This document shows, in pieces, positions 50,909 through 64,000 of a DNA stretch of 64,000 bases. The position numbers and the translations under genes are program-made. Origin of the DNA: a virus (taxonomy: Duplodnaviria > Heunggongvirae > Uroviricota > Caudoviricetes). Position 1 is the stretch's first letter. Every line of letters begins with the position of its first letter. Under the pieces are notes generated by a model. That model had not been told where the DNA came from. It made no database searches and saw only the letters and a list, made by a program, of their open reading frames with translations. Location of the stretch: positions 60,745 to 124,744 of the IMG/VR virus record IMGVR_UViG_3300005337_000004. One strand, written 5' to 3'.

Positions 50909-50963
50909 TGCCCGCCCGCATAACGCCAGCCCGGTACCCGAACACCCGTTAGGAGAACTGATC

Positions 50964-51451: not shown

Positions 51452-51455
51452 CGCG

Positions 51456-51749
51456 ATGAACACCGAAGCCACCCTGACCGGCACCATCACCATCCACCCG
51501 GCCGCCGGAACCGACGACCTGGACCGGATCCCCGAGACCAGCTACGTCCGCGTGAACCACGACGGCACCGCAATCGTACCCAGCGGTGAGGCGCCGCTGT
51601 CTACCGAGTCCGTCGCGCGTGAGGTTCGCGCACTGATCGAGGCGCTTCACGGTTTCGAGTTCGACGGCATCCTGATCCAGACCGCCGCCTCGAAGTACGG
51701 GTCGGCCCGCTCCCGGATTGTCGTGACCGACTTGGTTGTGAGGTTCTGA
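51456..51749 (+). CDS. hypothetical protein
   Basis: AAGGAGA RBS. 97 aa. Confidence 0.4.
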   Translation: MNTEATLTGTITIHPAAGTDDLDRIPETSYVRVNHDGTAIVPSGEAPLSTESVAREVRALIEALHGFEFDGILIQTAASKYGSARSRIVVTDLVVRF

Positions 51750-51750
51750 C

Positions 51751-51966
51751 GTGCCCACCCGCATGTCCCTCGCCGAGTTCACCGACGCAATCAACCGCGA
51801 GGACGGCTCGCTGCTGCGACTGTTCGCCTACACCCCGGTTGACCCGCACCGCGCGCCGGCCGAGCTGTACCACCTGTGCGTGGCCGCGAATCTTCAGTTC
51901 GAGGTGTTCAACGCGACGCTCGACCGCATCGCCGAGGTGCTCGGCATCGAACGAGAGGAGATCTGA
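51751..51966 (+). CDS. small hypothetical protein
   Basis: 71-aa ORF. Confidence 0.35.
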   Translation: MPTRMSLAEFTDAINREDGSLLRLFAYTPVDPHRAPAELYHLCVAANLQFEVFNATLDRIAEVLGIEREEI

Positions 51967-52361
51967 TGAACGACAACTGGCTGTTTTTCAAGGCGTGCGG
52001 CCACCCGTTCGGGCTGCACGTTGCCACGCCCACGGTGCAGACCGAGCGGCAGGCGTGGAACGCCTTCTACGACACCGAGAGGCAGCGGCGCGCCGCCGAG
52101 GACCGCGGCGTCACCTGCCGGCGCGTGGACCACGACACCTACCGCGAGCAGTACTACCAGCTCCTGCGTAACGGCTGCGACTGCAGGCCCGCGCCGGAAC
52201 AACTGCCCGCAGGCCGCGGCGTCTGTTCCGTGTGCGACCGCGAAATGCGGGTGCTGAAGGACGGCACCATCGGCCCGCACACCACCGGCCGCCCCGACCC
52301 GTACTGGTCGGGGCATTCACCCCGCTGCCCCGGGTGGGGACGCAAGCCGAAGGAGGCCTGA
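51966..52361 (+). CDS. Cys/His-rich protein
   Basis: Contains CGHPFG...CDCRP...CSVCD...CPGW. Confidence 0.4.
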   Translation: MNDNWLFFKACGHPFGLHVATPTVQTERQAWNAFYDTERQRRAAEDRGVTCRRVDHDTYREQYYQLLRNGCDCRPAPEQLPAGRGVCSVCDREMRVLKDGTIGPHTTGRPDPYWSGHSPRCPGWGRKPKEA

Positions 52362-52363
52362 TC

Positions 52364-52732
52364 ATGATCGTGCCCACTACTGCCGAGATCGCCGAGGGCG
52401 TCCGCACCAAAATGGCCGCCCAGCCCGACCGCCTGGCCGAAGCCAAGCCGTTGGCTGACGCACTCGTGGAGCAGTTGCGAGAGCGCATTCCGAACGCCGA
52501 CCCCGCGGTCATCGCCGCCGTCCTGCTGCACGCCGGCAGTTACGTCGGTTACCGCGTCTGGGACCAGATGAGCGAGCTCTGGATCGAGATGGACCGCTTC
52601 CACATGCGCACCGCAAACGCGATCGTTGTCGCCGGCGAGCAACTGTTCACCGAAGTTACCGGGGTGGCGATCGCTGCCGGGCCCGACGAGAAGCGCTCGT
52701 TCATTATGGCCGACTACCGCGAGCAGATGTAG
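52364..52732 (+). CDS. hypothetical protein
   Basis: AGGAGG RBS. 122 aa. Confidence 0.4.
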   Translation: MIVPTTAEIAEGVRTKMAAQPDRLAEAKPLADALVEQLRERIPNADPAVIAAVLLHAGSYVGYRVWDQMSELWIEMDRFHMRTANAIVVAGEQLFTEVTGVAIAAGPDEKRSFIMADYREQM

Positions 52733-52745
52733 GCGGGAGCGGGCC

Positions 52746-52943
52746 ATGAAGCTAAACGACAAGACCGCCCAGAAGTTGGGCCTGCTGGCCATCGAGGTTC
52801 GGCACCGCGCCAACGATTACGACACGTTCTCCTCTGACGAGGCGTGGCAGACCCGTGCCGGCCAGCTTGACCGGGCTGCGGATCTACTAAGCGAGGCTGC
52901 GCGCATCTTGGATACCGCGCTGGTGAAGGAAGGCGAGAGCTGA
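52746..52943 (+). CDS. small hypothetical protein
   Basis: 65-aa ORF. Confidence 0.35.
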   Translation: MKLNDKTAQKLGLLAIEVRHRANDYDTFSSDEAWQTRAGQLDRAADLLSEAARILDTALVKEGES

Positions 52944-53323
52944 TGGCCACCTACCGCGCCGACCTGACCGGCGATCATCACCGCCTCATCGCGCACCTGT
53001 TGCCCGGCGATCGCCTGATCCTCACCTGGTCGGCTGGCGAGAAGGCCATCGACGCCGACCCGGACTTGCCGTGGCTCGAGGTGTTCGACACCGACCCGAT
53101 CCCGCGGATTTGCCGCTACGGCACCGCTGCGGGGCTGGCGCAGAACACCCGGGTTCGGCAGCGTCCGCCGGTCACGGAGGCGGCGCGTGCGGTCCGGGCT
53201 GGCGGGGTCGTATACGTAACGTGCGAGCGGCGGCAGGACACCGACCGGTTCGGGCAGCCGTTCGGGCCGGCGGTGCTAATGCCGTCCGGGCATGTGCTGG
53301 TTGAGGCGGAGGTGAGCGTCTGA
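52943..53323 (+). CDS. hypothetical protein
   Basis: 126-aa ORF. Confidence 0.4.
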   Translation: MATYRADLTGDHHRLIAHLLPGDRLILTWSAGEKAIDADPDLPWLEVFDTDPIPRICRYGTAAGLAQNTRVRQRPPVTEAARAVRAGGVVYVTCERRQDTDRFGQPFGPAVLMPSGHVLVEAEVSV

Positions 53324-53679
53324 TGGGCGCCTTCGACAAGACCACGTTCACTGACCATGGCGACATCCGCGTCCTACACGTCCCGGCCGAGCTGGAGGTG
53401 TATACGGCCCCGAGCCTGCGCGAGGCCTCGGTGGATGCCGTGAACGACGGTCGCTACCACCTGTTGGTGGACCTGTCGCAGACCACGTTCATCGACAGCA
53501 CTGGCTGGGGTGTCCTGGTTGGCATGCGCAAACGGGTCGGCAGGTACGGCGGCACGATGCGCCTGGCCGGCCCGATCAGCGGTGGCGTCAACAGCGGACT
53601 GAAGATCACCGGCCTGGCGAACGTGTTCGAGATCGTTGGCAGCGTTGAGGTCGCGATCGGCGCGGGAGACGAGGGCTGA
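53323..53679 (+). CDS. STAS-domain protein (anti-sigma-factor antagonist, SpoIIAA/RsbV-like)
   Basis: Contains LLVDLSQTTFIDSTGWGVLVGM, the typical STAS core. 118 aa. Confidence 0.6.
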   Translation: MGAFDKTTFTDHGDIRVLHVPAELEVYTAPSLREASVDAVNDGRYHLLVDLSQTTFIDSTGWGVLVGMRKRVGRYGGTMRLAGPISGGVNSGLKITGLANVFEIVGSVEVAIGAGDEG

Positions 53680-54092
53680 TGTACCGCGAGGGCAAGTTTG
53701 TGATGTCGCACCGCGGCTACGCGGTTGACCTGTCGAGCTTCCGCATCGACGAGATCCGTACCGGCTGGAAGGGCGAGTACGCCTGCGCCACCGTGAACGC
53801 GGTGTGGTTCCGCCGCAAGAACGGCGTCAGCCAGACCGTGGCTGGTGAACTGTCGGACTCTCAGTGGGATATCCCGAAGGACGCCGTGCAGTTCCTGGAG
53901 CAGTACGAGGACGGACGCTACGGCGGCACGCCGTTTACCCGCTGGGACGGCACCGGCGTTTGGTACGCCGGCCAGGACCCGGAGGAGAACGCGCGGCACC
54001 TGGAGCTGCTGCGGACAGTTCTCGACGCGTACCACGCGAACCCTGCGGCGCCGGACCTCAGCGAGCGGTGGAATCGGTGGTGGAGGTTCTGA
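53679..54092 (+). CDS. hypothetical protein
   Basis: 137-aa ORF. Confidence 0.4.
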   Translation: MYREGKFVMSHRGYAVDLSSFRIDEIRTGWKGEYACATVNAVWFRRKNGVSQTVAGELSDSQWDIPKDAVQFLEQYEDGRYGGTPFTRWDGTGVWYAGQDPEENARHLELLRTVLDAYHANPAAPDLSERWNRWWRF

Positions 54093-54451
54093 TGTCTACG
54101 TTCAACCCTGGCGACCAGGTGCTGCTCAGCCTCGACTACAGCTACGCCATCGGCACCGTCGAAGAGCCCGCACGCAAAAGCGACAGTTTCGCCGTTCGCA
54201 TGCTCGGTGGGCGCCGCCTCTCCGAAGTCGAGATCACCGAGATGCGGCACCTGCCGCCCGATGTCCCGATGCTTCAGTGGGGATCCCGGGTGCGCGTCCA
54301 AGACAACGCCCCCCGGTGTGTCGGACGCCCCGGTTCGGTCTATCACGGGGAGTTCATCGCCAACGTCTTCGGCTACTGGGTCCTCCTTGACTCGAACGAC
54401 CAGACCTGGATCCCAGCCGACGCGCTTATGGCGGAAGCAGGTAAGGACTGA
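54092..54451 (+). CDS. hypothetical protein
   Basis: 119-aa ORF. Confidence 0.4.
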   Translation: MSTFNPGDQVLLSLDYSYAIGTVEEPARKSDSFAVRMLGGRRLSEVEITEMRHLPPDVPMLQWGSRVRVQDNAPRCVGRPGSVYHGEFIANVFGYWVLLDSNDQTWIPADALMAEAGKD

Positions 54452-54657
54452 TGCCCACGTTCTGTCGATACCAGTGTCCAGCCCACCACGGCGTCTACGT
54501 CCACACCGCCGACTGCCCGGTTGTTCCGGAGCAGCCGGCGTGCGACGGGTGCGCCGACGAGATCAGGGCGTCGCAGCTGGCCCGGCGGAAGCCGAGCGTC
54601 GGCGAGGCCATCATCGCGCTCATTCCGGGCGCCGAAGGAGCGGGGATCAAGCCATGA
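54451..54657 (+). CDS. small zinc-binding protein
   Basis: CRYQCPAHH...CPV...CDGC pattern. Confidence 0.35.
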   Translation: MPTFCRYQCPAHHGVYVHTADCPVVPEQPACDGCADEIRASQLARRKPSVGEAIIALIPGAEGAGIKP

Positions 54658-54908
54658 CCAACAAGACCACCGCTGCAGAAGACCGCTCCATCCACGAGCA
54701 CGTCCGCTCCCTACGCAAGGTGAAGCTGACGTTCAACGAGGACCAGATCTGGGTGCTGTACCGGCTGCTCGTCCGCGAACGGAGCAATGGCGCGCCGACG
54801 CTGCTGCCGGGGCTGTCCCGCGAGCACGACCATGCGATGGGCATGGCGCTGGCGCAGTTGTCCGATGCCTACATCGACCTGACCACACCAAAGGAAGGCG
54901 GCGTCTGA
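54654..54908 (+). CDS. small hypothetical protein
   Basis: 84-aa ORF. Confidence 0.35.
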   Translation: MTNKTTAAEDRSIHEHVRSLRKVKLTFNEDQIWVLYRLLVRERSNGAPTLLPGLSREHDHAMGMALAQLSDAYIDLTTPKEGGV

Positions 54909-55342
54909 TGCCGATCCCCACCGCAGAGCAGATCCTGTACGTCCTTAACGACTGCGAGCCGATCGACCTGGAGGCACTGGAATTCTGCGTCATCACCGGC
55001 GGATCCCGCCGCGACGTGTACGGCAGAAGGCTGCCGGACGACGCGCCGGCCGACTACCGGGGCTTCGAGTACGGCGAGCTCCTGATCCTCAACGAGTCCG
55101 GCCGGGAGCCGTTCGGCGACCACCGCAACCCGTCGAAGTGGTCGGTGACGACGTTCGAGACCAAGGACTACGACGCCGCGCTTGCCCTGTCCGAGCTGAT
55201 CAAGTCGGGCCTGGCGAAGCAGGACGGCCTGTACGAGTGGTCGGACGGGCTGTGGGTTCGGCCCGACGACCAGGCCGGCGCCAACGGGCGCAGGCGGAAC
55301 GACCGCGGTGCGCTGATCGCACGGATCGGAGACAACGACTGA
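54908..55342 (+). CDS. hypothetical protein
   Basis: 144-aa ORF. Confidence 0.4.
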   Translation: MPIPTAEQILYVLNDCEPIDLEALEFCVITGGSRRDVYGRRLPDDAPADYRGFEYGELLILNESGREPFGDHRNPSKWSVTTFETKDYDAALALSELIKSGLAKQDGLYEWSDGLWVRPDDQAGANGRRRNDRGALIARIGDND

Positions 55343-55764
55343 TGGGCTACATGAGACACAACGCGATCGTCGCCGTCGTGAACGGCTACATCTTTGGCCA
55401 GCCGGAAGCCCCGGACGTTGAGGCGTTCCGCGCATCGCTGCCCGTCGAGTGGCAGCACCTGGTCGTCGGCCCGGTGAAGTCGGTCATGAACGACTACGTG
55501 ACGTTCGTGTTCGCGGCCGACGGATCCAAGGAAGGCTGGGGTGCCTCCGACAATGGCGACCTCTACCGGGAGCAGTTCGTCGACCTGTTCCGGCCGGCCT
55601 ACGAGAAGGGCTACGACCCGTCCGACGTACTGATCGTGGACGCCCGCTTCGGCGGTGACGAGCCCGGCGGCTACGGCGAGGACGAGCTGATCGTCTCAAC
55701 GAACTTCCGCGACGACCGGGTGCGGCTGGACATGGTGGTCGACGACGCGGAGGACGAGGCCTGA
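55342..55764 (+). CDS. hypothetical protein
   Basis: 140-aa ORF. Confidence 0.4.
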   Translation: MGYMRHNAIVAVVNGYIFGQPEAPDVEAFRASLPVEWQHLVVGPVKSVMNDYVTFVFAADGSKEGWGASDNGDLYREQFVDLFRPAYEKGYDPSDVLIVDARFGGDEPGGYGEDELIVSTNFRDDRVRLDMVVDDAEDEA

Positions 55765-56249
55765 TGTCCAACGACACCCCCGCGATCAGCATCACTCCGT
55801 CGCTGACGTTCGCGGAGATAAAGTCCTTCGGCGACTTCCGCACCGTGTACTGCGTTCCGGCCGAGGGCGGGGGCGCCGGCGCTCTGGAGCCGAGCACCGG
55901 CATGAACTACCGCCCGAGTTTCGTTCAGTGGCACCTGCAGGACATCATCGACCACTTCCCGGCGCACGAGTTCGCCGGGTACGTCGAGTACCGGAACACG
56001 TCGGAAGACCAACCTCCGGTGGCGCGGTACTACGTGCGCGGCCGGCGCGTGGAGATGGTGACGCCGACGCTGGTGTGGCCAGACGACCCGCAGCCTGTTT
56101 CGGGGGCGGCGCGCCAGCAGATCGCCGCCGAGCTTGAGGCCCACGCCGAGTCGATCGGTTGGTACGAGGGCAGCGGCGTTTGGGCGGAAGCGCTTGACGT
56201 GGTCCGGCGGGAACCATGGACCCGACGGAACGAGGGCGACGATGACTGA
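55764..56249 (+). CDS. hypothetical protein
   Basis: 161-aa ORF. Confidence 0.4.
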   Translation: MSNDTPAISITPSLTFAEIKSFGDFRTVYCVPAEGGGAGALEPSTGMNYRPSFVQWHLQDIIDHFPAHEFAGYVEYRNTSEDQPPVARYYVRGRRVEMVTPTLVWPDDPQPVSGAARQQIAAELEAHAESIGWYEGSGVWAEALDVVRREPWTRRNEGDDD

Positions 56250-56598
56250 CGACCTCCTTGCCAACGTTGAGTTCTCCTCCCCGCGCCCCGGCATCGTTCA
56301 GATGACCCACGCCGCCGAGATCTGCGACGGCGAGCCCTGCGTCATCCACTCTCCCAGCAACCACCACATGGCCGCCTGGCCGACGACGTTCCGTTCCGAC
56401 CGGGCGATGCTGTGCCCCACGCATAAGAACCACGCGCTGGTGCTGACCGAACGGCTCTGCCAGCACAACTGCGGCCACCCGGATCCCGATTCGCTGACGT
56501 GGCTGCGGCTTCACGATCCGCTCGGGCTCGGCGCGTGGGCCACGCACGGGTGCTGCCGGTGCTGTGTTCCGGGCGAGACAGGGGAAGTCGATGCCTGA
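56242..56598 (+). CDS. Cys/His-rich protein
   Basis: Contains CDGEPC...HNCGHP...HGCCRCC. Confidence 0.4.
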   Translation: MTDDLLANVEFSSPRPGIVQMTHAAEICDGEPCVIHSPSNHHMAAWPTTFRSDRAMLCPTHKNHALVLTERLCQHNCGHPDPDSLTWLRLHDPLGLGAWATHGCCRCCVPGETGEVDA

Positions 56599-56911
56599 CC
56601 CGGGCCGCTGGCGCATGTGGGCACACCGCTATGACAGCGGCGATCTGCACAACCTTGGCAGCCGCCGCTATGTCGAAGCCCACGGCGTTCCGAAGCCGAT
56701 CGTTGAGGTGAATGTAACCGAGGTTGCCGACGACGACCCGGCTGCAACCCACTGGGGTTGGATGCGTCCCACCGATACCGAACCGGTGATGATTTACCCG
56801 CGCGAGGTGCTGTTCTCCATGTGCTTCCACTACGGCGTTCAGGCCGAAGTCAACGCCGGCAAGGGGCGTGTGGTGCGGCTGGCCGTAACGGAGGTGGCCG
56901 ATGGCCAGTGA
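56591..56911 (+). CDS. hypothetical protein
   Basis: 106-aa ORF. Confidence 0.4.
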   Translation: MPDPGRWRMWAHRYDSGDLHNLGSRRYVEAHGVPKPIVEVNVTEVADDDPAATHWGWMRPTDTEPVMIYPREVLFSMCFHYGVQAEVNAGKGRVVRLAVTEVADGQ

Positions 56912-57206
56912 GCAGCATGCCGAGACCTGGCGTCGGTTTGTTGCCGACGTCCGCGACTTCACCGAGCGACACCCCTCGCCGGAAGGTGTGGCTCACCTCG
57001 TGTGGGAGGCCGCCGTTCTCGGGTTCGTCAACGGCACCCAGCATGCGGCCGGGCGCAGCCATTCGGAGGTGCATGCCGACTTCCTGAAGGACCACGCCAT
57101 CGTCAAGGGCGTCCTCGACATTGCCGAGCTCGACTGCGAGCGATGGGGCGCCCTAAGGGAACTGCGCGCCGGCGGCGAGACGGCCGGAGGGCACGGCGAT
57201 GCCTGA
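56901..57206 (+). CDS. hypothetical protein
   Basis: 101-aa ORF. Confidence 0.4.
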   Translation: MASEQHAETWRRFVADVRDFTERHPSPEGVAHLVWEAAVLGFVNGTQHAAGRSHSEVHADFLKDHAIVKGVLDIAELDCERWGALRELRAGGETAGGHGDA

Positions 57207-57384
57207 GCACATCAGCCCTGTACGCATGCGCGAGATCGACTACATCCTGCGGTTCCCCGGCAGGTTCCCCAAGTCCGACATCCGTGACGCCGCGCTCGAG
57301 CTGCGCGCGGAGATCGACTTGCTCAACGAGGCACTACAACGCACCCTTCCAGCCAACACCCACCACGAAGGAACCCCGTCATGA
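57199..57384 (+). CDS. small hypothetical protein
   Basis: 61-aa ORF. Confidence 0.3.
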   Translation: MPEHISPVRMREIDYILRFPGRFPKSDIRDAALELRAEIDLLNEALQRTLPANTHHEGTPS

Positions 57385-57980
57385 CCAGACGTATCGCTGC
57401 CCTGATTGCAGGGCTGTTCATCGCCCTCGCCGCTCTCGCTGGCTGCTCCCACGCCGCGCCCGTGTCCTACGCGCCGGCCGCCTACGGGCAGAACGGCCAG
57501 TGCTACTACGATGACGACCCCTACGAGGCGCAGCAGCTCCTTGCCGCGGGCCTGTGCCCTGCCGGCTGGGTGCCCACGCCGATGCCGCTGTACTGGCACG
57601 AGGAGTACTACAACTACTACTCGAGCCCCAGCTATTACAACCGGTACGTCCTGGTGTCCCACCGCACCGTGTACGTCACCCACGAAACGACGTTCCACAC
57701 CACCTACTCCTCGCAGATCACCGCGGCGTCATCGAAGGCCACGTACAAGGGCAGCAACGGCAAGACCGTCACCGGCACCACGGCGAAGATGAAGTTCTCT
57801 ACCGGCTCCGGATCCACCGGGAAGGTCGGCGGTGGGTCGCTGCGCAGCGGAACCAGCGGTGGATCTACTAAAGATACCGGTGGCGGAGGCGGCTCCGGCG
57901 GCAGCAAGAGCAGCGGCACGGTGAAGTCGAAGACCGGCAGCGGCAGCGTCGGCGGCGGATCCCTGCGGAGCCGCAAGTGA
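57381..57980 (+). CDS. lipoprotein with Gly/Ser-rich internal repeats
   Basis: Signal peptide plus a LAGCS lipobox. Tyr-rich middle, then duplicated GSGSTGKVGGGSLRS / GSGSVGGGSLRS repeats. Confidence 0.6.
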   Translation: MTRRIAALIAGLFIALAALAGCSHAAPVSYAPAAYGQNGQCYYDDDPYEAQQLLAAGLCPAGWVPTPMPLYWHEEYYNYYSSPSYYNRYVLVSHRTVYVTHETTFHTTYSSQITAASSKATYKGSNGKTVTGTTAKMKFSTGSGSTGKVGGGSLRSGTSGGSTKDTGGGGGSGGSKSSGTVKSKTGSGSVGGGSLRSRK

Positions 57981-58492
57981 TGCAGGAACGCGACTTCAGC
58001 GTCTACGGCTACTGGCCTCACTCCAGCGAACGCTGGGGTGAGGTGTTCCAGGCCACGTCAGCCCGTGCGGCCGAGGACCTGGCGCAGATGTACGCCGCCG
58101 AGCAGGGCGCGGTGCTGCGGGTGGCCGGCGTGTTCGAGGGCATCGTGGCGTCCGTCGACCGGTACACGCTGTACGTGGACCCGCGGGACGTGCGCAACCT
58201 CGACGAGGAAGACCTCGAGCCCGACGTGCCGGAACTTGAGACCGCAATGTGGACCGCGCTCGGGCTGGTTGAGGACCCGCACGACCGCCGCTGGAATGAG
58301 CGCACTGGCGGGCAGCGGTTTTGCGATCAGATCCTTGCCGACTCGCCGTTGGCCGCGGAGGACGTGGCAATGGACAAGGTGCACGACGAGGGCGGTCGGC
58401 TGCTGGTGTGTGCGGTGTTCGCGGGTGCTCGGCAGCGGGCGGACGCGCTGTACGCGAAGTTCGCGAACCCGGATGTGCAGGTGGAAGGCTAA
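57977..58492 (+). CDS. hypothetical protein
   Basis: 171-aa ORF. Confidence 0.45.
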   Translation: MMQERDFSVYGYWPHSSERWGEVFQATSARAAEDLAQMYAAEQGAVLRVAGVFEGIVASVDRYTLYVDPRDVRNLDEEDLEPDVPELETAMWTALGLVEDPHDRRWNERTGGQRFCDQILADSPLAAEDVAMDKVHDEGGRLLVCAVFAGARQRADALYAKFANPDVQVEG

Positions 58493-58607
58493 CCGGCACC
58501 CGAGGGATAGGCCGAAAAGCTACACGGCCGACAACAGCGGCGTACCCTCGCTAACGCACTCGCGTTAAACGCTCCGCGCCCCAATTCCCCACTCCCCTGG
58601 AGCCAGC

Positions 58608-59600
58608 ATGTCCGAGTACGGCAACAGATGGTCCGTCACCAAGATGGTCGCCGTCGGCAGCGCGACCGTCCTGGGTCTCATCATCGGAATCCCCGTCGTC
58701 GTTGGGACCCTGTCCGCCTGGGACTCGACCACCGCCGGCCAGGTCGCCGTCGTCCGCAACGGCGGACCGTTCTCCAACAGCAACATCCGCGCCGTCATCA
58801 AGCCCGCGTCGAGCCTGACGTGGACAGGCATCTGGTCCAGTACCCACAAGTACCCGGCGACACAGTCCTCGTACACCATCACGTCGGACCCTAAGAACGG
58901 CGGGCAGCCCGGCGTGGACGTCGTGTCCGTGCCGTCCTCCGACGGCGTGCAGATGGGGATCGAAGGCACGCTGTACTACACGCTCAATACCGACCCGGCG
59001 ACAATCCGAAGCTTCGACGACAAGTTCGGCACCCGCACCTACAGCTTCAACGCGAGCACCTACAACGCCTACGCCGGCACCAAGGGCTGGGACGCGTTCA
59101 TCAACACCATGGTGCGGCCGGTTCTGAACAATGCGCTGCGCGAGCAGATCGGCGACACACGCTGCTCCGACCTGGTGTCATCGTGCGCGCTGGTGCAGAA
59201 CAACGGCACCAACCCGGCCAACGGCACGTTCCCCGTGGGCAACGTCAACATCGCCAAGGTGCAGAACGCGATCAACGCCACGCTGACGACCGACATCAAG
59301 AGCACCCTCGGCGGGGACTACCTGATTGGGATCCAGTTCGCGATCAACAAGGTCGATCTGCCGTCGAACGTGCAAACCGCCGTCGATCAGGCGCAGGCGG
59401 CGTTCGCGGCGGTGTCACAGTCGCAGGCGAAGATCGCACAGGCCAAGGCCGAGGCGGATGCGAACGCCGCCAAGCAGCAGGGGTACAACAGCTGCCCCGC
59501 TTGCGCCGAGCAGGACATCTTGAAGGCGCTGCCGCCGTCAGTGACGGTCTTTGCGCCGGGGTCCGGGACGGGGCTGCCGTTGACGACCGGAGCGAAGTAG
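58608..59600 (+). CDS. SPFH/band-7 domain membrane protein
   Basis: N-terminal transmembrane helix, an SPFH-like core (...GQVAVVRNGG...), and a C-terminal Ala/Gln coiled coil (AQAAFAAVSQSQAKIAQAKAEADANAAKQQ). Confidence 0.5.
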   Translation: MSEYGNRWSVTKMVAVGSATVLGLIIGIPVVVGTLSAWDSTTAGQVAVVRNGGPFSNSNIRAVIKPASSLTWTGIWSSTHKYPATQSSYTITSDPKNGGQPGVDVVSVPSSDGVQMGIEGTLYYTLNTDPATIRSFDDKFGTRTYSFNASTYNAYAGTKGWDAFINTMVRPVLNNALREQIGDTRCSDLVSSCALVQNNGTNPANGTFPVGNVNIAKVQNAINATLTTDIKSTLGGDYLIGIQFAINKVDLPSNVQTAVDQAQAAFAAVSQSQAKIAQAKAEADANAAKQQGYNSCPACAEQDILKALPPSVTVFAPGSGTGLPLTTGAK

Positions 59601-59602
59601 CC

Positions 59603-59902
59603 GTGCCCGAGTTCGCTGCGGGGCTGGTCGTTTTGGCGCTGATCGGGGTGGGGCTGGCGTGGCGTGCGGAGCGCGCACGCCGCAAGGCGGCATCCGAGCG
59701 CTATGCCGGCGTATGGGAAACGGCAGAGAAGGCCGAGGCTGGTGTCACGATCGTCGGGGTCCGGCGCGTGTCGCACGGCCGCGAAACCGACTTTGCCGAG
59801 GTGGCGCGGGTTCCGAACGACGATCCGGACTGGCTTCGCAAGGTGCGTGACGCCCGCGCGGAGGCTGCGGAACGTATCAGCACGTTGGCGGCGGACGTAT
59901 GA
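59603..59902 (+). CDS. small membrane protein (NfeD-like partner of SPFH protein)
   Basis: GTG start and one transmembrane helix. It lies immediately downstream of the SPFH gene, as in SPFH/NfeD pairs. Confidence 0.4.
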   Translation: MPEFAAGLVVLALIGVGLAWRAERARRKAASERYAGVWETAEKAEAGVTIVGVRRVSHGRETDFAEVARVPNDDPDWLRKVRDARAEAAERISTLAADV

Positions 59903-60053
59903 CGGTCGTGCCACCGAAGGCAAAGGCCTCCTAGGTGGCGGTAAACGAATTCGCCGAGATCACGGCAGTCGGCTACCGTAGCCCTCGTCCCGGTGCGCCG
60001 GTTCCAGCTACTTCTTTGGAAAAGTGCTCGCTGGCACCACTCTTGATCTCGGG

Positions 60054-60198
60054 GCATTGACAACAGAATCAGCACCCGCCGGGTGCGCAGATGAGTCTTA
60101 CTTCTTCCTCAAAAGAAGAGAGCCCGGGTTCGAATCCCGGCGGCACGCGAGAGCGCGCTGTGGTGTAGCGGCCTAGCACTTCCGTCAGGCTCGTCACC
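60054..60198 (+). ncRNA. Y-RNA-like unit 1 (permuted tRNA-like module)
   Basis: T-arm CCGGG-TTCGAAT-CCCGG at 60124-60140, followed by a short closing hairpin and a D-arm-like GGTGTAGCGGCCTAGCAC. The unit is bounded by TTGATCTCGGG-type repeats at 60043 and 60199. Confidence 0.4.
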
Positions 60199-60212
60199 CT
60201 GATCTCCGGCGG

Positions 60213-60333
60213 GTTCAACTTCATAAGCACCTCCCGGTGCGCTGGTCGCGGGTACTTCTTGCAGAGGATCGGTTCGAATCCGAACGCCGCTTCGGTGGCG
60301 ACGACGTGTGGCTACGTCAACCCCGCAGCCGTT
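60213..60333 (+). ncRNA. Y-RNA-like unit 2
   Basis: T-loop GGTTCGAATCC at 60271-60281, followed by a CGCCGC-UUCG-GUGGCG tetraloop-capped acceptor-like hairpin (60285-60300). Bounded by repeats at 60199 and 60334. Confidence 0.4.
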
Positions 60334-60344
60334 TTGATCTCGGG

Positions 60345-60498
60345 AGGGACAGCGCAGACTTCGGTCGCGCCCGGTGCGAGGCAAGTACGGGTACTTCTAA
60401 TTTGAGGGTCGCCGGTTCGAGTCCGGCCCGCGTCAGCGATGAGGCGGTAGCTCAGTGGGTAGAGCATCAGACTGGCGAAAGCCGTCCCCGTCGCCAAC
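60345..60498 (+). ncRNA. Y-RNA-like unit 3 (best-formed: T-arm, closed acceptor stem, canonical D-arm)
   Basis: GCCGG-TTCGAGT-CCGGC (60411-60427), then CCGCGTC-a-gcgat-GAGGCGG, a 6/7-bp acceptor-like stem. Then TA-GCTC-AGTGGGTA-GAGC (a perfect D-arm, 60448-60465) and a GGC-GAAA-GCC tetraloop hairpin. Ends at the repeat at 60499. Confidence 0.5.
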
Positions 60499-60554
60499 TT
60501 GATCTCGGGCGCGACCACTGCCGCTCCTCCCCCGTGCAGTAGGGAAGTCGAGCG

Positions 60555-62207
60555 ATGTCGAAGTTCAACAGCCCCACCGTCAAGCCGGCCGTGTTCTCCC
60601 CGGTCGCCACCGAGCGCGCCCCTTCCGGCCGTACCCACGAGGGCGGCCCCGGGTACGGGCGCGACACCAAGTCGGAACTGTTCCTTCTCGCAGTCACGAA
60701 CATGGTCGCGGAGAACACCTTCTACGAGACCGCCGGCGCCCGTGACGACCGGTTCGAGCAACTCGTTCGGCAGGTTGCCATTGAGGACCCTGACTGGATG
60801 AGCCGGTTCGTTCCGTGGCTGCGCTCCGTTGCGAACATGAGGTCCGCCTCGATCGTGGCTGCGTGCGAAGCTGTGAAGGCGCGGCTGGATGCCGACCGCC
60901 AGGTGGAGAAGCCGCCGTTCGGCGTGGCCCAGGTGCAAAACCCCTTCAACCGCGCCGTCATTGCCGCGGCCTGCCAGCGTGCTGACGAGCCGGGCGAGAT
61001 CCTGGCGTACTGGACGTCCCGCTACGGCCGGGCAATCCCGAAGCCGGTGAAGCGGGGCGTGGCCGACGCTGTGGCCCGGCTCTACAGCGGCAAGTCGCTG
61101 CTAAAGTACGACTCGGACGCCAAGGGCTTCCGATTCGGCGACGTCATCGACCTTGTCCACCCCACGCCGCACCCGGATAAGCCATGGCAGGGCGAGCTGT
61201 TCCGCTACGCCCTTGACCGCAGGCACAACCGGGCCGGACTGCCCCCGGAGTCGAACCGGACGCTGAATGCGAACCTGGTGATGCGGACCCTGCCGGTTGA
61301 GGACCGGCGCGCGGTTCTGCTGCAGCCGGACGGCCCGGAGCGGCTCGCCGATGCGGGGTTCACATGGGAGGCGCTGGCTGGTTGGCTCCAGGGCCCGATG
61401 GATGCCGCCGCGTGGGAGGCGATCATCCCGTCGATGGGCCTGATGGCGCTGGCGCGGAACCTGCGGAACTTCGACCAGGCTGGCGTGTCCGATGCTGTGG
61501 CAGCGCAGGTTGCCGCGAAGTTCGCCGACGCCGAGCAGGTCGCCCGTTCCCGGATGCTGCCGTTTCGGTGGCTCTCGGCGCACCGGGCCGCGCCGTCGCT
61601 GCGGTGGTCTTACCCGCTGGAGCAGGCGCTCGGTCACAGCCTCGCGAACATTCCGCAGCTGGCGGGCCGAACCCTGATCCTGGTGGACACCTCCACCTCG
61701 ATGGACGCCGGGTTCTCCAAGGACGGCACACTGATGCGGTGGGACGCTGCCGCACTGTTCGGGATCGCACTCGGGCACCGCTGCGCGCACGCGGATGTGG
61801 TGTCGTTCTCCAGCGCCCAGCAGTTCTACGGCGACCGCCCCGGCCCGCGGACGAAGGCGTTCCCGATGGCCAAGGGCGAGTCGGTGCTGCGTTCGCTTCA
61901 GCGGTGGAAGGGCGACGGGTACTTCCTTGGCGGCGGTACCGACACGGCAGGGGCGCTGCGGTCCACATTCGCCAGGCACGATCGGGTGGTCATCGTCACC
62001 GACGAGCAGGCCGCATATGACCCGGTGGGCGTGTCGGGGTCGATCCCAGCGAACGTGCCGATGTACACGTGGAACCTCGCTGGCTACCAGGCGGGGCACG
62101 CGCAGTCCGGGGGCGCCAACAGGCATACCTTCGGGGGGCTGACTGATCAGGCCTTCAAGATGATTCCCCTCCTGGAGGCTGGGGCGTCGCAGAGCTGGCC
62201 GTTCTGA
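60555..62207 (+). CDS. rsr: Ro60-like TROVE-domain protein with C-terminal vWA (MIDAS) domain (Rsr ortholog)
   Basis: 550 aa. N-terminal TROVE/HEAT-like region. C-terminal vWA with a DxSxS MIDAS motif (ILVDTSTSMD) and later GGGTD. Confidence 0.75.
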   Translation: MSKFNSPTVKPAVFSPVATERAPSGRTHEGGPGYGRDTKSELFLLAVTNMVAENTFYETAGARDDRFEQLVRQVAIEDPDWMSRFVPWLRSVANMRSASIVAACEAVKARLDADRQVEKPPFGVAQVQNPFNRAVIAAACQRADEPGEILAYWTSRYGRAIPKPVKRGVADAVARLYSGKSLLKYDSDAKGFRFGDVIDLVHPTPHPDKPWQGELFRYALDRRHNRAGLPPESNRTLNANLVMRTLPVEDRRAVLLQPDGPERLADAGFTWEALAGWLQGPMDAAAWEAIIPSMGLMALARNLRNFDQAGVSDAVAAQVAAKFADAEQVARSRMLPFRWLSAHRAAPSLRWSYPLEQALGHSLANIPQLAGRTLILVDTSTSMDAGFSKDGTLMRWDAAALFGIALGHRCAHADVVSFSSAQQFYGDRPGPRTKAFPMAKGESVLRSLQRWKGDGYFLGGGTDTAGALRSTFARHDRVVIVTDEQAAYDPVGVSGSIPANVPMYTWNLAGYQAGHAQSGGANRHTFGGLTDQAFKMIPLLEAGASQSWPF

Positions 62208-62446
62208 TGTCCGACAAGGTTGAGGCCCCGTTCACGCCCGATCAGGTGGCATCACTCAACGCCTACCAGGTTGCCGGCATCATGCATCCGTTCACCTGTG
62301 GTGGCGGCCAGGCGCGTGGACATAGCGGCATCCGGCTGATTGCCGCCGAGGACGGCTGGCACTGCGCCAGCGACACCTGCGACTACCGGCAGGACTGGGC
62401 CCACGCTTTCATGGCTAACTGGTCGTGGAGGAGGCTCGAACTGTGA
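62207..62446 (+). CDS. small Cys/His protein
   Basis: 79-aa ORF with a FTCGGG...WHCASDTCDY cluster. Confidence 0.4.
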   Translation: MSDKVEAPFTPDQVASLNAYQVAGIMHPFTCGGGQARGHSGIRLIAAEDGWHCASDTCDYRQDWAHAFMANWSWRRLEL

Positions 62447-63321
62447 CCGACCGCACCGCGCTCGGAGACAGAATGAAAAAGTACGAGGCGGCCACGAAGA
62501 CCGTGCTGCCGCCTCGTAACTACTCGATCATCAGGGTCGACATCCGAGCCGCCCACACGCTGCTGCGTCACGCCGCCAAGCCGTTCGACTACGACTTCAT
62601 GGCCGACATGGACGCGACCGCCGTCGCGTTGTGCGCCGAGGTCCAGGGTGCGGTGCTCGGGTACGTGCAGTCCGACGAAATCAGCGTCCTCGTCTGCGAC
62701 TTCACCGGCCCGAACAGTCAGCCGTGGTTTGGCGGCGGGGTGCAGAAGCAGGTGTCGATCGCCGCGGCTACCACCACTGCCGCATTCAACGCACGCCGAC
62801 CCGCCGAGGTGGCGACCGGCCGCATGGCCACCTTCGATGCCCGCGTCTTTACGCTCCCGAACGCGGTGGAGGTCGCGAACTACTTCATCTGGCGAGAATG
62901 CGATGCAGTTCGCAACAGCATTGCCATGGCGGCGCAAGCTAAGTTCTCCCCGCGCCAGCTCCACGGCGTCAATACCGGCCGCATGCAGGAGATGCTGTTC
63001 GCCGAGCACGGCATCAACTGGAACGACTACCCGGACGGCGCCAAGCGCGGCCGGGTCGTGGTGAAGGCCTCCGGCGAGCGGGAAGTCACGTTCACGCACA
63101 AGCGAACCAACGAGGAGCGAACCGTCACGGCGGTGCGGTCTTGGTGGGAGGCGCAGCCGGCACCGCACTTCACGACGGATCCCGATGGGTGGCTGGCGCA
63201 GATAGTTCCGGCGCTGCCAATCCTGGATCTGGGACCCGAGTTCGAGACGCACGCCGCGGAGTCGCTGGAGATCGCGAACGCGACGTTCGATGCGGTCGCG
63301 CAGTCCTGGCCGAAAGATTGA
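62443..63321 (+). CDS. Thg1-like protein (tRNA-His guanylyltransferase family, 3'-5' polymerase)
   Basis: N-terminal ...MKKYE...YSIIRVDIRAAHTLL...KPFDYDFMADMDATA...GYVQSDEISVLV matches the Thg1/TLP catalytic core (RxDGRxFH..., SDE). Confidence 0.6.
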   Translation: MTDRTALGDRMKKYEAATKTVLPPRNYSIIRVDIRAAHTLLRHAAKPFDYDFMADMDATAVALCAEVQGAVLGYVQSDEISVLVCDFTGPNSQPWFGGGVQKQVSIAAATTTAAFNARRPAEVATGRMATFDARVFTLPNAVEVANYFIWRECDAVRNSIAMAAQAKFSPRQLHGVNTGRMQEMLFAEHGINWNDYPDGAKRGRVVVKASGEREVTFTHKRTNEERTVTAVRSWWEAQPAPHFTTDPDGWLAQIVPALPILDLGPEFETHAAESLEIANATFDAVAQSWPKD

Positions 63322-63363
63322 CTTACCCTGAACCATCTGGTCGTTTCCGTCCCGAGGAGACCG

Positions 63364-64000
63364 ATGACCACGCTCGACGAACTGTTCCCGCCCGCGGACC
63401 TCAAGGCCGAGATCGAAGCCGGCTACGTCTTGCGCAAGCAGCACCCTGAGCTGCCGATCTCGATCTACACCTACGGGCGCACCTGCCAGTACGAGAACCG
63501 GTGGAACGCCATCACCACTCGGTGTCGCGGCCTGATCGCCGACGACACCGACGGCCGGATAGTGGCGCACTGCCTGCCCAAATTCTTCAATCACAGCCAG
63601 CACGGCATCGGCTACGACTTCGCGCCGCCGCTGCCAAACGAGCCGTTCGAGATCTTCGACAAGGTCGACGGCTCGCTCGGGATCGTCTTTCACTACGCCG
63701 ACGCCTGGCGCGTGGCGTCAAAAGGCTCGTTCACTTCCGAGCAGGCGAGGTGGGCGCAGGCGTGGCTGGACGCAGCCGGCCCGGATGGCGCACTCGAGCC
63801 GGGCACCACGTACCTCGCGGAGATCGTGTACCCGGAGAACCGGATCGTAGTGAACCTCGGTGACGAGCGGACGCTGGTGCTGCTGGCCGTGTACGACGCC
63901 GAAGGCCGGGAGCACCCGGTTATCAGCTACGCCGACGCCTGGGAGAAGCTCGGCGGCCGGGTTGTGCGCTCGTGGCGGGCGCTGCCGCTGGCGGAACTGG
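63364..64000 (+). CDS. ATP-dependent RNA ligase (nucleotidyltransferase motif I KxDG), 3' end beyond window
   Basis: GAGGAGA RBS. Contains FDKVDGSLGIV (a KxDGS ligase adenylylation motif), with later TYLAEIVYPEN-type motifs. The ORF is open to the window end. Confidence 0.6.
   Translation, partial: MTTLDELFPPADLKAEIEAGYVLRKQHPELPISIYTYGRTCQYENRWNAITTRCRGLIADDTDGRIVAHCLPKFFNHSQHGIGYDFAPPLPNEPFEIFDKVDGSLGIVFHYADAWRVASKGSFTSEQARWAQAWLDAAGPDGALEPGTTYLAEIVYPENRIVVNLGDERTLVLLAVYDAEGREHPVISYADAWEKLGGRVVRSWRALPLAEL

What the first reader, a model, noticed from the sequence alone, without database searches (positions are those of the whole stretch)
60555..64000. RNA-repair cassette: Ro60(TROVE-vWA) + small Cys protein + Thg1-like 3'-5' polymerase + RNA ligase
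Four co-directional genes follow the Y-RNA array. They encode Ro60/Rsr with a vWA domain, a small Cys/His protein, a Thg1-like enzyme and an ATP-dependent RNA ligase with a KxDG motif. Thg1-like enzymes rebuild 5'-truncated tRNAs. RNA ligases reseal broken tRNAs, for example after host anticodon-nuclease attack. Ro60 with Y RNA scaffolds RNA quality control and degradation. Together this looks like a phage counter-defence or RNA-repair system that couples tRNA-mimic ncRNAs to tRNA end-healing enzymes. Such combinations are rarely characterised experimentally in actinophages.
Basis: partly seen in the sequence, partly recalled or inferred. Interest (0 to 1): 0.85.

Follow-up and report, generated by a model that had tools for sequence, protein, structure and literature searches.

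The report
Modular phage RNA-repair gene island
An uncultivated high-GC phage carries, side by side, a Ro60 protein with four Y-like RNAs, a reverse (3'-5') tRNA-repair polymerase, an RNA ligase and (just past the window end) a kinase-phosphatase. All are known RNA-repair parts, and related phages show they are separate, swappable modules rather than one fixed machine.

Summary
Profile searches confirm Ro60 (TROVE plus vWA, 60555-62207), a bacterial-type Thg1-like protein (TLP, 62443-63321) and an Rnl1-type RNA ligase (63364 to the window end). Catalytic residues are intact in all three. An identical metagenome contig (L002) extends the window.

Four Y-RNA-like units lie upstream. One matches Rfam YrlA at E = 1e-7, below the gathering score.

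Related phage contigs show three independently gained or lost modules in two hot spots that flank a backbone gene:
- Ro60 with its Y RNAs;
- TLP;
- Rnl1 with Pnkp, sometimes with an RlaP nucleotidyltransferase where the window has TLP.

All three modules occur together only in this genome. The "small Cys protein" is the backbone gene, not a cassette component. The TLP gene inserted into it and took over its last 27 codons.

My best reading is a T4-like heal-and-seal tRNA repair pathway supplemented by 5'-end rebuilding, with Ro60/Y RNA as a neighbouring autonomous module. Every part and the general layout are already described in the literature. I rate it a new variant of a known kind, of moderate interest.

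The parts
58608..59600 (+). SPFH/Band-7 membrane protein (330 aa). Possible accessory cargo of hot spot 1; membership in the repair island is uncertain.
   Evidence: Pfam Band_7 1e-17 and phrog_200. No homologue was found at this position in L057, L058, L063 or L064. An SPFH gene embedded in the rtc RNA-repair locus of P. aeruginosa is reported in PMC13086221.
59603..59902 (+). 99-aa protein with a hydrophobic N-terminal stretch, downstream of the SPFH gene. Function unknown.
   Evidence: Gene call in L002 at 9049-9348. No Pfam family.
59987..60055 (+). Y-RNA-like unit 1. It is short: a terminal stem plus one hairpin.
   Evidence: Carries the shared 5' motif GGTGCG..TACTTCT and 3' motif TGATCTCGGG. 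Fold.
60075..60213 (+). Y-RNA-like unit 2, with a T-arm-like GGTTCGAATCC hairpin.
   Evidence: Repeat families D1-D3. The fold has a terminal stem closing a multibranch core, z = -2.5.
60230..60347 (+). Y-RNA-like unit 3, with a T-arm-like hairpin.
60368..60511 (+). Y-RNA-like unit 4. This is the canonical YrlA-like unit, with T arm, D arm and a GGCGAAAG motif.
   Evidence: Rfam YrlA hit at 60387-60494: 42 bits (gathering score 69), E = 1.2e-7, full-length model match. Similar sub-threshold YrlA hits lie directly upstream of Ro60 in L039, L057 and Gordonia phage VanLee.
60555..62207 (+). Ro60/Rsr orthologue (TROVE ring plus vWA domain with a MIDAS motif).
   Evidence: It is 57-68% identical to 80 chromosomal homologues in Streptomyces and other Actinomycetota.
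62207..62446 (+). 79-aa Cys/His protein. It is the truncated form of a ~115-aa backbone gene and is probably not part of the repair system.
   Evidence: 40 homologues, none annotated with a function. Conserved HPFTC..GWxC..CxYRQDWAH core. AF2 model pLDDT 79 with no PDB fold match. The full-length form is present in L057 and L058.
62443..63321 (+). Bacterial-type Thg1-like protein (TLP, 292 aa). Bases ~62430-63237 are the inserted gene. Bases 63238-63321 are the captured 3' end of the backbone gene.
   Evidence: BtTLP 4KGK matches at 3e-47, against 1.6e-10 for eukaryotic Thg1. Residues E15, R31, D33, K46, S77, D78 and E79 (292-aa numbering) align with BtTLP E12, R28, D30, K43, S74, D75 and E76. 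Junction homology to L057 is shown.
63364..64000 (+). Rnl1-type ATP-dependent RNA ligase: the first 212 of 403 aa. The gene runs to window-equivalent 64575. The Pnkp gene follows at 64577-65485 (L002 14023-14931).
   Evidence: PF09511. Alignment to T4 Rnl1 2C5U keeps motif I K100, motif IV E233-G234 and motif V K246/K248. Pnkp matches 4XRP at 1.2e-46 and T4 Pnkp 1LTQ at 2.2e-38, with a P-loop G9-T16 and D174-x-D-G-T.

Best explanation
The region is an accessory RNA-repair island in a ~120-kb uncultivated actinophage-like genome. It is built from three autonomous modules.

[quoted passage not shown] Pnkp removes the 3' phosphate through its DxDxT phosphatase domain. It phosphorylates the 5' end through its P-loop kinase domain. 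Rnl1 then adenylylates itself on K100 and seals the break.

**Module B, end rebuilding (TLP).** A template-dependent 3'-5' polymerase rebuilds nucleotides missing from a 5' end. The 5' monophosphate it needs can be supplied by Pnkp. In related phages an RlaP nucleotidyltransferase accompanies the same ligase and kinase instead.

**Module C, Ro60 with four Y-like RNAs.** This is an RNA-binding ring with tRNA-mimicking partner RNAs. It probably binds or triages damaged or misfolded RNA, possibly through host PNPase as in phage phiLo. It sits next to the enzymes but does not depend on them.

**Shown versus inferred.** The following are shown: family identity, intact catalytic motifs, tight same-strand packing, the modular presence/absence pattern, and the insertion history. 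The following are inferred: the substrates, the order of reactions and the counter-defence role.
For: **Family assignments and catalytic residues:**

**Operon-like packing:** the Ro60 stop overlaps the Cys start, the Cys stop overlaps the TLP start, and 1 nt separates Rnl1 from Pnkp.

**Recurrent pairwise linkages in independent phage lineages:**
- TLP-Rnl1-Pnkp in L010, L064/65 and L159.
- TLP two genes from Pnk in mycobacteriophage Pound.
- Ro60, then Rnl1, an RlaP-like gene and Pnkp in L044.
- RlaP near Ro60 in L048 and L056.
- A HAD_SAK_2 phosphatase and TLP near Ro60 in L055.
- Ro60 inside a ~30-tRNA array, followed by an Rnl1-like ligase, in Streptomyces phage BRock.

**TLP and RlaP alternate beside the same ligase and kinase:** window versus L058.

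**Literature:**
- TLPs repair 5'-truncated tRNAs in vitro using the 3' acceptor strand as template (PMC3701042).
- Thg1-PNK-ligase neighbourhoods have been described (PMC2904730).
- Phage RNA-repair components include Rnl1, RlaP, Thg1 and TROVE (PMC7824862).
- Pnk plus RNA ligase was proposed as RNA repair in cluster J, E and L mycobacteriophages (PMC3706429).
- Phage Ro60 binds its Yrl RNAs and host PNPase (PMC12135203).
Against: - There are no experimental data for this phage, and its host is unknown.
- No cognate host nuclease has been identified.
- The ligase falls far short of the NCBIfam RnlA equivalog cutoff (54.6 against 242 bits). Its C-terminal 140 aa do not align to the T4 Rnl1 domain that, to my knowledge, confers tRNA specificity.
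- Templated 3'-5' addition needs a template strand. TLP therefore cannot obviously fill gaps in an anticodon loop, and its link to the ligase step is uncertain.
- TLP occurs without Rnl1-Pnkp in L063.
- 80 cellular Ro60 loci have none of these enzymes within 10 kb.
- The YrlA hit is below Rfam's gathering score.
- The adjacency may simply reflect two insertion hot spots lying about 250 bp apart.
Confidence: 0.65

Rival explanations
1. **One integrated machine.** The Ro60 ring and its four tRNA-like Y RNAs act as a scaffold. They recruit TLP, Rnl1 and Pnkp to damaged tRNAs, forming a phage 'repairosome'. This is the coupling the first reader proposed.
For: All parts lie on one strand with overlapping or near-abutting genes. 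Ro60 lies within about 7 kb of at least one RNA-repair gene in six of the phage loci examined: the window, L044, L048, L055, L056 and BRock. In L052 an Rnl1 homologue lies about 5 kb from Ro60. [quoted passage not shown] From my own knowledge, the Salmonella rsr-yrlBA-rtcBA operon is a precedent; the held papers cover the Rsr-YrlA/YrlB association (PMC4201824) and the RtcR-regulated rtcBA operon (PMC7790460, abstract).
Against: Close relatives keep Ro60 and Y RNAs without any of the enzymes (L057; the short contigs L148 and L149 end inside Ro60 and cannot show what follows). Others keep the enzymes without Ro60 (L058, L064/65, L159). The two groups sit in different hot spots separated by a backbone gene. 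Most phage Ro60 loci and all 80 cellular loci examined lack these enzymes nearby.
Confidence: 0.15
2. **The enzymes act on the phage's own Y RNAs.** They process, re-seal or rebuild the tRNA-like modules, for instance when these serve as decoys for host tRNA nucleases, rather than repairing host tRNAs.
For: Four tRNA-like units lie immediately upstream. M. smegmatis YrlA is cut by RNase P and receives CCA, so Y RNAs are handled by tRNA enzymes (PMC4201824).
Against: TLP-Rnl1-Pnkp occurs in relatives that have no Ro60 or Y RNA in the preserved flank (L064/65, L159, L010). There is no direct evidence.
Confidence: 0.1
3. **The TLP is a tRNA-His maturation enzyme.** It adds G-1 to a phage or host tRNA-His, like eukaryotic Thg1, and is unrelated to repair.
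For: Many phage homologues are annotated 'tRNA-His guanylyltransferase'.
Against: The protein matches bacterial BtTLP far better than eukaryotic Thg1 (3e-47 against 1.6e-10). TLPs act on many tRNAs and prefer 5'-truncated substrates (PMC3701042). No tRNA-His gene lies in the window or in L002. From my own knowledge, bacterial tRNA-His G-1 is genome-encoded.
Confidence: 0.05
4. **Not RNA repair at all.** The ligase acts as a tail-fibre attachment catalyst, like the second activity of T4 gp63, and Pnkp heals DNA ends.
For: The PHROG 562 label is 'RNA ligase and tail fiber protein attachment catalyst'. From my own knowledge, T4 Pnkp also acts on DNA.
Against: The genes lie far from the tail genes (tape measure at 1751-5035), among non-structural accessory genes. 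They are joined to a tRNA-specific polymerase family and an RNA-binding protein.
Confidence: 0.03

Closest known systems
Phage T4 Pnkp plus Rnl1 tRNA repair pathway (counter to the PrrC anticodon nuclease), and its mycobacteriophage counterparts (Omega and Cjw1 Pnkp; clusters J, E, L)
   Same: Bifunctional kinase/DxDxT-phosphatase Pnkp aligned end to end with T4 Pnkp (1LTQ, 2.2e-38). An Rnl1-family ligase with motifs I, IV and V. The two genes are adjacent.
   Different: The ligase is only distantly related to T4 RnlA (2e-6) and below the equivalog cutoff. Its C-terminal domain is not alignable. A TLP and a Ro60/Y-RNA module sit alongside. No cognate nuclease is known.
Bacterial Thg1-like protein neighbourhoods with polynucleotide kinase and RNA ligase (Anantharaman, Iyer and Aravind 2010, PMC2904730); BtTLP (4KGK)
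   Same: Bacterial-type TLP with the full catalytic set, next to a kinase and an RNA ligase.
   Different: This case is phage-borne. The kinase is a T4-type Pnkp with a phosphatase domain. The TLP carries a 27-aa foreign C-terminal tail captured from the gene it inserted into.
Ro60/Rsr with YrlA Y RNAs: the Salmonella rsr-yrlBA-rtcBA operon, M. smegmatis Rsr, mycobacteriophage Ro60 and Thermus phage phiLo Ro60-Yrl-PNPase
   Same: A TROVE plus vWA protein with tRNA-like Y RNAs encoded directly upstream. Linkage to RNA-repair genes.
   Different: The neighbours are ATP-dependent Rnl1, Pnkp and TLP, not RtcB and RtcA. There are four Y-like units rather than the two reported for Salmonella, M. smegmatis and phiLo. 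The Ro60 module is separable from the enzymes in close relatives.
RlaP-containing RNA-repair operons (RNA ligase plus RlaP Pol-beta nucleotidyltransferase plus kinase/phosphatase)
   Same: Same layout of ligase, nucleotidyltransferase and end-healing enzyme. The relatives L058 and L044 have exactly Rnl1-RlaP-Pnkp.
   Different: In the window genome RlaP is absent, and a 3'-5' polymerase of an unrelated fold (TLP) is the only nucleotidyltransferase.

Membership tests
Ro60 / TROVE (Rsr) | TROVE domain detected by a curated profile | tested here: met
   PF05731 scores 51.3 bits against a cutoff of 23. The profile match covers only residues 283-345. PHROG 850 covers residues 18-543 at 9e-51.
Ro60 / TROVE (Rsr) | C-terminal vWA domain with a MIDAS motif | tested here: met
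   D378-T-S-T-S, with G459GGTD and T482DEQ. The region aligns to the vWA region of phiLo Ro60 9KOP. Pfam VWA_2 itself is below its cutoff (20.3 against 27).
Ro60 / TROVE (Rsr) | Cognate Y RNA encoded next to the gene | tested here: inconclusive
   The YrlA model matches full length at E = 1.2e-7, but at 42 bits against a gathering score of 69. Four units share end motifs that are unique in the window. Equivalent hits lie upstream of Ro60 in three other phages. Binding was not tested.
Thg1 / Thg1-like protein (TLP) | Thg1 catalytic domain detected by a curated profile | tested here: met
   PF04446 scores 76.4 bits against a cutoff of 29.2. Thg1C scores 26.1 against 26.3, marginally below.
Thg1 / Thg1-like protein (TLP) | Metal-binding carboxylates and the activation lysine (BtTLP D30, D75, E76, K43) | tested here: met
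   D33, D78, E79 and K46 (292-aa numbering) align with them.
Thg1 / Thg1-like protein (TLP) | TLP subtype rather than eukaryotic tRNA-His-specific Thg1 | tested here: met
   BtTLP matches at 3e-47, against 1.6e-10 to 1e-6 for Candida and human Thg1.
Thg1 / Thg1-like protein (TLP) | [quoted passage not shown] | not testable with these tools
   Needs an enzyme assay.
Rnl1-type RNA ligase (T4 RnlA family) | Nucleotidyltransferase motifs I (KxDG), IV (EG) and V (KxK) | tested here: met
   K100VDG, E233G and K246xK248 align to T4 Rnl1 K99, E227-G228 and K240/K242. The T4 residue numbers are from my own knowledge.
Rnl1-type RNA ligase (T4 RnlA family) | Equivalog-level match to T4 RnlA | tested here: not met
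   TIGR02308 scores 54.6 bits against a cutoff of 242.25. Pfam RNA_lig_T4_1 is met (60.1 against 28.3). It is therefore a family member, not an RnlA equivalog.
Rnl1-type RNA ligase (T4 RnlA family) | C-terminal domain conferring tRNA specificity | tested here: inconclusive
   Residues 261-403 do not align to T4 Rnl1.
T4-type polynucleotide kinase-phosphatase (Pnkp) | N-terminal P-loop kinase plus C-terminal DxDxT HAD phosphatase in one chain | tested here: met
   AAA_33 scores 57.3 bits and HAD_PNKP 172.5 bits. G9LPASGKT and D174IDGT are present. The protein aligns end to end with 4XRP (1.2e-46) and T4 Pnkp 1LTQ (2.2e-38).
rsr-yrl-rtcBA type RNA-repair operon | RtcB ligase, RtcA cyclase and RtcR regulator next to rsr | tested here: not met
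   The protein genes scanned with Pfam, from window 57381 to window-equivalent 67317, gave no RtcB, RtcA or RtcR match.
Modular RNA-repair system (ligase + nucleotidyltransferase + end-healing enzyme + scaffold and ncRNA) | All four functional classes encoded together | tested here: met
   Rnl1, TLP, Pnkp and Ro60 with Y-like RNAs lie within about 5.5 kb on one strand. The component classes are as listed in PMC7824862. Cooperation between them is not shown.

The most novel reading that the evidence does not exclude
The four Y-like RNAs, each with a differently built tRNA-like core, serve as adaptors on the Ro60 ring. They bring TLP, Rnl1, Pnkp and/or host tRNA enzymes to damaged tRNAs, or they act as sacrificial tRNA decoys that the enzymes then regenerate. 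This phage would then encode a complete, self-contained RNP 'repairosome'. It would be the first system in which the long-proposed scaffold role of Ro60/Y RNA in RNA repair could be reconstituted from one operon.
Probability: 0.15. Interest if true: 0.8.

Novelty: new variant of a known kind. Interest (0 to 1): 0.45.

Why it matters
The role of bacterial and phage Ro60/Y RNA is still unclear. The in vivo role of bacterial-type TLPs is also unknown. Here both sit in one compact, probably co-transcribed stretch with a textbook heal-and-seal pair. Natural relatives provide ready-made 'deletion' variants: Ro60 only, enzymes only, and RlaP instead of TLP.

That makes a small defined gene set for heterologous reconstitution. 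Such work could ask three questions:
- Does Ro60/Y RNA influence tRNA repair?
- Which tRNA lesions does a TLP fix in cells?
- Which actinobacterial tRNA-targeting defences does the set neutralise?

The TLP insertion, with its own ribosome-binding site and a captured C-terminus, is also a clean example of how accessory genes are spliced into phage backbones.

The individual parts and the overall layout are already in the literature, so this is an informative instance rather than a new principle.

Tried and rejected
- **Rfam at gathering thresholds** found nothing in the window. Only the permissive scan found YrlA.
- **Exact-sequence lookup of the 298-aa TLP** failed because the real start is 62443. 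The Ro60 lookup succeeded.
- **DNA similarity to isolated phages** is nearly nil. The only hit is 84 bp to the Gordonia phage VanLee Ro gene. DnaB is at most 44% identical to any record. No named phage or host can be assigned.
- **Viral-contig scan with the ligase** found nothing.
- **The small Cys/His protein** has no Pfam, PHROG or NCBIfam family. Its AF2 model (pLDDT 79) has no PDB fold match, with best E = 3.3. It also occurs in a contig with no RNA-repair genes nearby (L059). I therefore rejected it as a cassette component.
- **The alternative that TLP was deleted from the relatives** was considered and rejected. The tail motif AEFExHAxESLxxANExF..WP occurs in distant members of the Cys family (P0011, P0012, P0022; at the N-terminus in P0019). 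TLPs elsewhere (L003-L011) align only up to residues 267-271. L057 carries about 40 nt at the junction with no counterpart in the window.
- **Promoter and terminator scans** were uninformative.
- **Other hot-spot cargo genes in relatives** have no informative family beyond weak HTH and zinc-ribbon hits.
- **Burroughs and Aravind 2016 (PMC5062991)** is not held. It is cited only indirectly through PMC7824862.

Full report
**1. What is in the sequence**

The window is 66.6% G+C and carries mostly plus-strand genes, including a tape-measure protein and a DnaB helicase. It is a siphovirus-like phage genome. No isolated phage is close to it: the only DNA match is 84 bp to the Ro gene of Gordonia phage VanLee, and DnaB is at most 44% identical to any record.

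- **Ro60 (60555-62207).** It passes Pfam TROVE (51.3 bits, cutoff 23). It matches PHROG 850 over nearly its whole length (9e-51). It has a vWA MIDAS motif, D378-x-S-x-S. Its best solved relative is Ro60 of Thermus phage phiLo.
- **TLP.** It passes Pfam Thg1 (76.4 bits, cutoff 29.2). It matches the Bacillus thuringiensis Thg1-like protein structure 4KGK at 3e-47, against 1.6e-10 or weaker for eukaryotic Thg1. The BtTLP carboxylates D30, D75 and E76, the activation lysine K43, and R28 and E12 are all conserved. It is therefore a bacterial-type TLP. In vitro, members of this class rebuild 5'-truncated tRNAs of many identities, using the 3' acceptor strand as template (PMC3701042). The likely start is GTG 62443. 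It has a GGAGG motif upstream and overlaps the preceding stop by 4 nt.
- **RNA ligase (63364 onward).** This ORF is the N-terminal 212 aa of an Rnl1-family ligase (PF09511, PHROG 562).

**2. What lies beyond the window**

Contig L002 carries exactly this Ro60 gene and is 100% identical to window 50555-64000.

- The ligase is 403 aa. Motifs I (K100VDG), IV (E233G) and V (K246xK248) align to T4 Rnl1.
- One base after its stop, a 302-aa T4-type polynucleotide kinase-phosphatase begins. It scores HAD_PNKP 172.5 bits and AAA_33 57.3 bits. It aligns end to end with Pnkp1 4XRP (1.2e-46) and T4 Pnkp 1LTQ (2.2e-38). It has a P-loop and a DxDxT motif.

The cassette is therefore Y-like RNAs, Ro60, small protein, TLP, Rnl1, Pnkp. 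The last two form the classic heal-and-seal pair.

**3. The Y-RNA array**

Between 59987 and 60511 lie four units. Each begins with GGTGCG-N8-22-TACTTCT and ends with TGATCTCSGG. These motifs occur four times each in the 64 kb and nowhere else, against shuffle expectations of 0 and 0.3.

Each unit folds as a terminal stem closing a branched core. Units 2 to 4 have a T-arm-like GGTTCGAxTCC hairpin. Unit 4 matches the full Rfam YrlA model at E = 1.2e-7, but below the gathering score (42 against 69 bits). Comparable YrlA hits sit directly upstream of Ro60 in L039, L057 and VanLee. This fits the published pattern of YrlA-like RNAs next to Ro60 in bacteria and mycobacteriophages (PMC4201824) and in phage phiLo (PMC12135203).

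**4. Comparative anatomy: the key result**

Relatives of this phage share two backbone genes around the region. One is a 171-aa gene (window 57977-58492). The other is a 112-aa gene just after Pnkp. Between them the content varies.

| Genome | Hot spot 1 (171-aa gene to Cys gene) | Cys gene | Hot spot 2 (Cys gene to 112-aa gene) |
|---|---|---|---|
| Window | SPFH, 99-aa protein, four Y-like RNAs, Ro60 | split by TLP | Rnl1, Pnkp |
| L057 | Y RNAs, Ro60, 193-aa HTH protein | intact (116 aa) | empty |
| L058 | three unknown genes | intact (115 aa) | three small genes, Rnl1 (89% identity), RlaP, Pnkp |
| L063 | HNH-endonuclease-like ORF | split by TLP | other genes; no ligase or kinase within 8 kb |
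| L064/65 | one unknown 335-aa gene | split by TLP | two small genes, Rnl1 (52%), Pnkp (94%) |
| L159 | no Ro60 homologue (about 780 bp, not examined) | split by TLP | Rnl1 (93%), Pnkp (92%) |
| L148, L149 | Ro60 follows the backbone gene directly | contig too short | contig too short |

The main points are these.

- Ro60/Y RNA, TLP and Rnl1-Pnkp are three independently gained or lost modules. All three co-occur only in the window genome.
- The two groups occupy two different hot spots, separated by one small backbone gene.
- TLP and RlaP (PF10127, 'RNA repair pathway DNA polymerase beta family') alternate beside the same ligase and kinase. This suggests they fill the same nucleotide-restoring slot.

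**5. The small Cys/His protein**

It belongs to a family of about 40 unannotated proteins. They come from metagenomic contigs, several of 60-220 kb, and from two Streptomyces genomes. The family has a conserved HPFTC…GWxC…CxYRQDWAH core. It matches no profile family, and a confident AF2 model finds no PDB fold.

In L057 and L058 the gene is about 115 aa. Window 62213-62436 aligns to its 5' part. Window 63238-63317 aligns at 92.5% to its 3' end. The roughly 800 bp in between is the TLP gene, with its own ribosome-binding site. L063 and L064 have the same junctions, so this was a single insertion event.

As a result, the last 27 residues of TLP (EFETHAAESLEIANATFDAVAQSWPKD) are the captured C-terminus of the interrupted gene. 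TLPs in other lineages align only up to residues 267-271. The small protein is thus a bystander backbone gene, not a repair component.

**6. Wider context**

- **Phage Ro60 loci from IMG/VR.** Eighteen loci were found (seventeen distinct, since L050 duplicates L051). Five have at least one RNA-repair gene within about 7 kb: L044 has Rnl1, an RlaP-like gene and Pnkp; L048 and L056 have RlaP; L052 has Rnl1; and L055 has a HAD_SAK_2 phosphatase and TLP.
- **Streptomyces phages BRock and Alone3.** Ro60 is embedded in an array of about 30 tRNA genes. In BRock the array is followed by an Rnl1-like ligase and a metallophosphatase.
- **Mycobacteriophage Pound (cluster J).** A TLP lies two genes from its Pnk. 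Cluster J, E and L phages are already proposed to use Pnk plus RNA ligase for RNA repair (PMC3706429, PMC5511906).
- **Low-GC large phages.** There TLP neighbours NAD-salvage genes and PTH2. These are typical counter-defence islands (PMC7824862).
- **Cellular Ro60 loci.** By contrast, 80 actinobacterial chromosomal Ro60 loci lack TLP, Rnl1 and Pnkp within 10 kb. Their Ro60 is 57-68% identical to the window protein, closer than any isolated-phage Ro60.

Ro60 therefore tends to sit in tRNA and RNA-repair neighbourhoods in phages, but not obligately.

**7. Mechanism**

The best-supported reading has three parts.

[quoted passage not shown] Pnkp heals both ends and Rnl1 seals them. This is inferred from family membership and intact active sites.
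- **End rebuilding.** TLP rebuilds missing 5' nucleotides on a 5'-phosphate end that Pnkp can supply. This is inferred from BtTLP biochemistry, the published Thg1-PNK association (PMC2904730) and the TLP/RlaP alternation.
- **Ro60 and Y RNAs.** They bind damaged or misfolded RNA and may engage host PNPase, as shown for phiLo (PMC12135203). This module is adjacent to the enzymes but autonomous.

Weak points are as follows. Templated addition does not obviously apply to anticodon-loop gaps. The ligase C-terminal domain is unlike that of T4. No host or cognate nuclease is known. Adjacency may partly be a by-product of two neighbouring hot spots.

**8. Verdict**

RNA repair is a sound reading, but physical or functional coupling of Y RNAs to the enzymes is not supported by the comparative data, and the small protein does not belong to the system.
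- All components and the layout of ligase, nucleotidyltransferase, end-healing enzyme and TROVE scaffold are already described (PMC2904730; PMC7824862, which cites Burroughs and Aravind 2016).
- The new elements are three. First, this is a compact combination of Ro60 and four Y-like RNAs with ATP-dependent Rnl1, Pnkp and TLP rather than RtcB and RtcA. Second, TLP stands where relatives have RlaP. Third, the insertion history is documented.
- I rate it a new variant of a known kind, with interest 0.45.

Noticed in passing
window 62430-63321 (compare L057 6004-6351, L063 1850-2979, L064 5896-7001): The TLP gene is an ~800-bp insertion, carrying its own GGAGG ribosome-binding site, into a backbone gene. 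It now ends with the interrupted gene's last 27 codons. The junctions are identical in three genomes.
   Followed up: yes
window 58608-59902: A membrane-anchored SPFH/Band-7 protein and a 99-aa protein with a hydrophobic N-terminal stretch sit directly upstream of the Y-RNA array. No homologue was found at this position in the relatives. SPFH genes are known inside rtc RNA-repair loci (PMC13086221), so the pair could be a fourth module or unrelated cargo.
   Followed up: partly
L001 (Gordonia phage VanLee) 4876-4979; L060 (Streptomyces phage Alone3) 6774-6847; L040 9828-9901; L041 9651-9880; L043 9649-9724: tRNA genes, either annotated or predicted by ARAGORN, lie just upstream of phage Ro60 genes. 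In VanLee the annotated tRNA-Arg(tct) overlaps a YrlA model hit. Several of these are probably Y-RNA tRNA-like modules mislabelled as tRNAs.
   Followed up: partly
L060 and L061 (Streptomyces phages Alone3 and BRock): Ro60 is embedded in the middle of an array of about 30 tRNA genes. In BRock the array is followed by an Rnl1-like ligase and a metallophosphatase gene.
   Followed up: partly
L053 12346-13203; L055 14241-14756; L048 3486-4385; L056 6633-7445: Other phage Ro60 loci carry nearby a Tad2-like anti-Thoeris gene (L053), a HAD_SAK_2 RNA-repair phosphatase (L055) or RlaP nucleotidyltransferases (L048, L056). Ro60 seems to reside in counter-defence and RNA-repair islands.
   Followed up: partly
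L002 12810-14931 versus L058 7358-10177 and L064 7731-9747: Mosaic identities. The window Rnl1 is 89% identical to that of L058 but 52% to that of L064. The window Pnkp is 63% identical to that of L058 but 94% to that of L064. This implies a recombination breakpoint between the two genes, at the place where L058 has RlaP.
   Followed up: partly
L063 1092-1850: An HNH-endonuclease-like ORF occupies hot spot 1 in this relative. This is consistent with homing-type turnover at the site.
   Followed up: no
window 9538-9614 (minus strand): ARAGORN predicts a tRNA-Ala(cgc) inside a plus-strand ORF with high third-position G+C (9055-10242). It may be spurious.
   Followed up: no
L012-L037 (low-GC large phage contigs): In these phages TLP neighbours NAD synthase/NADAR, NAPRTase, Nudix, PTH2 and YpsA-SLOG genes. 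This is a different, NAD-centred counter-defence context.
   Followed up: partly
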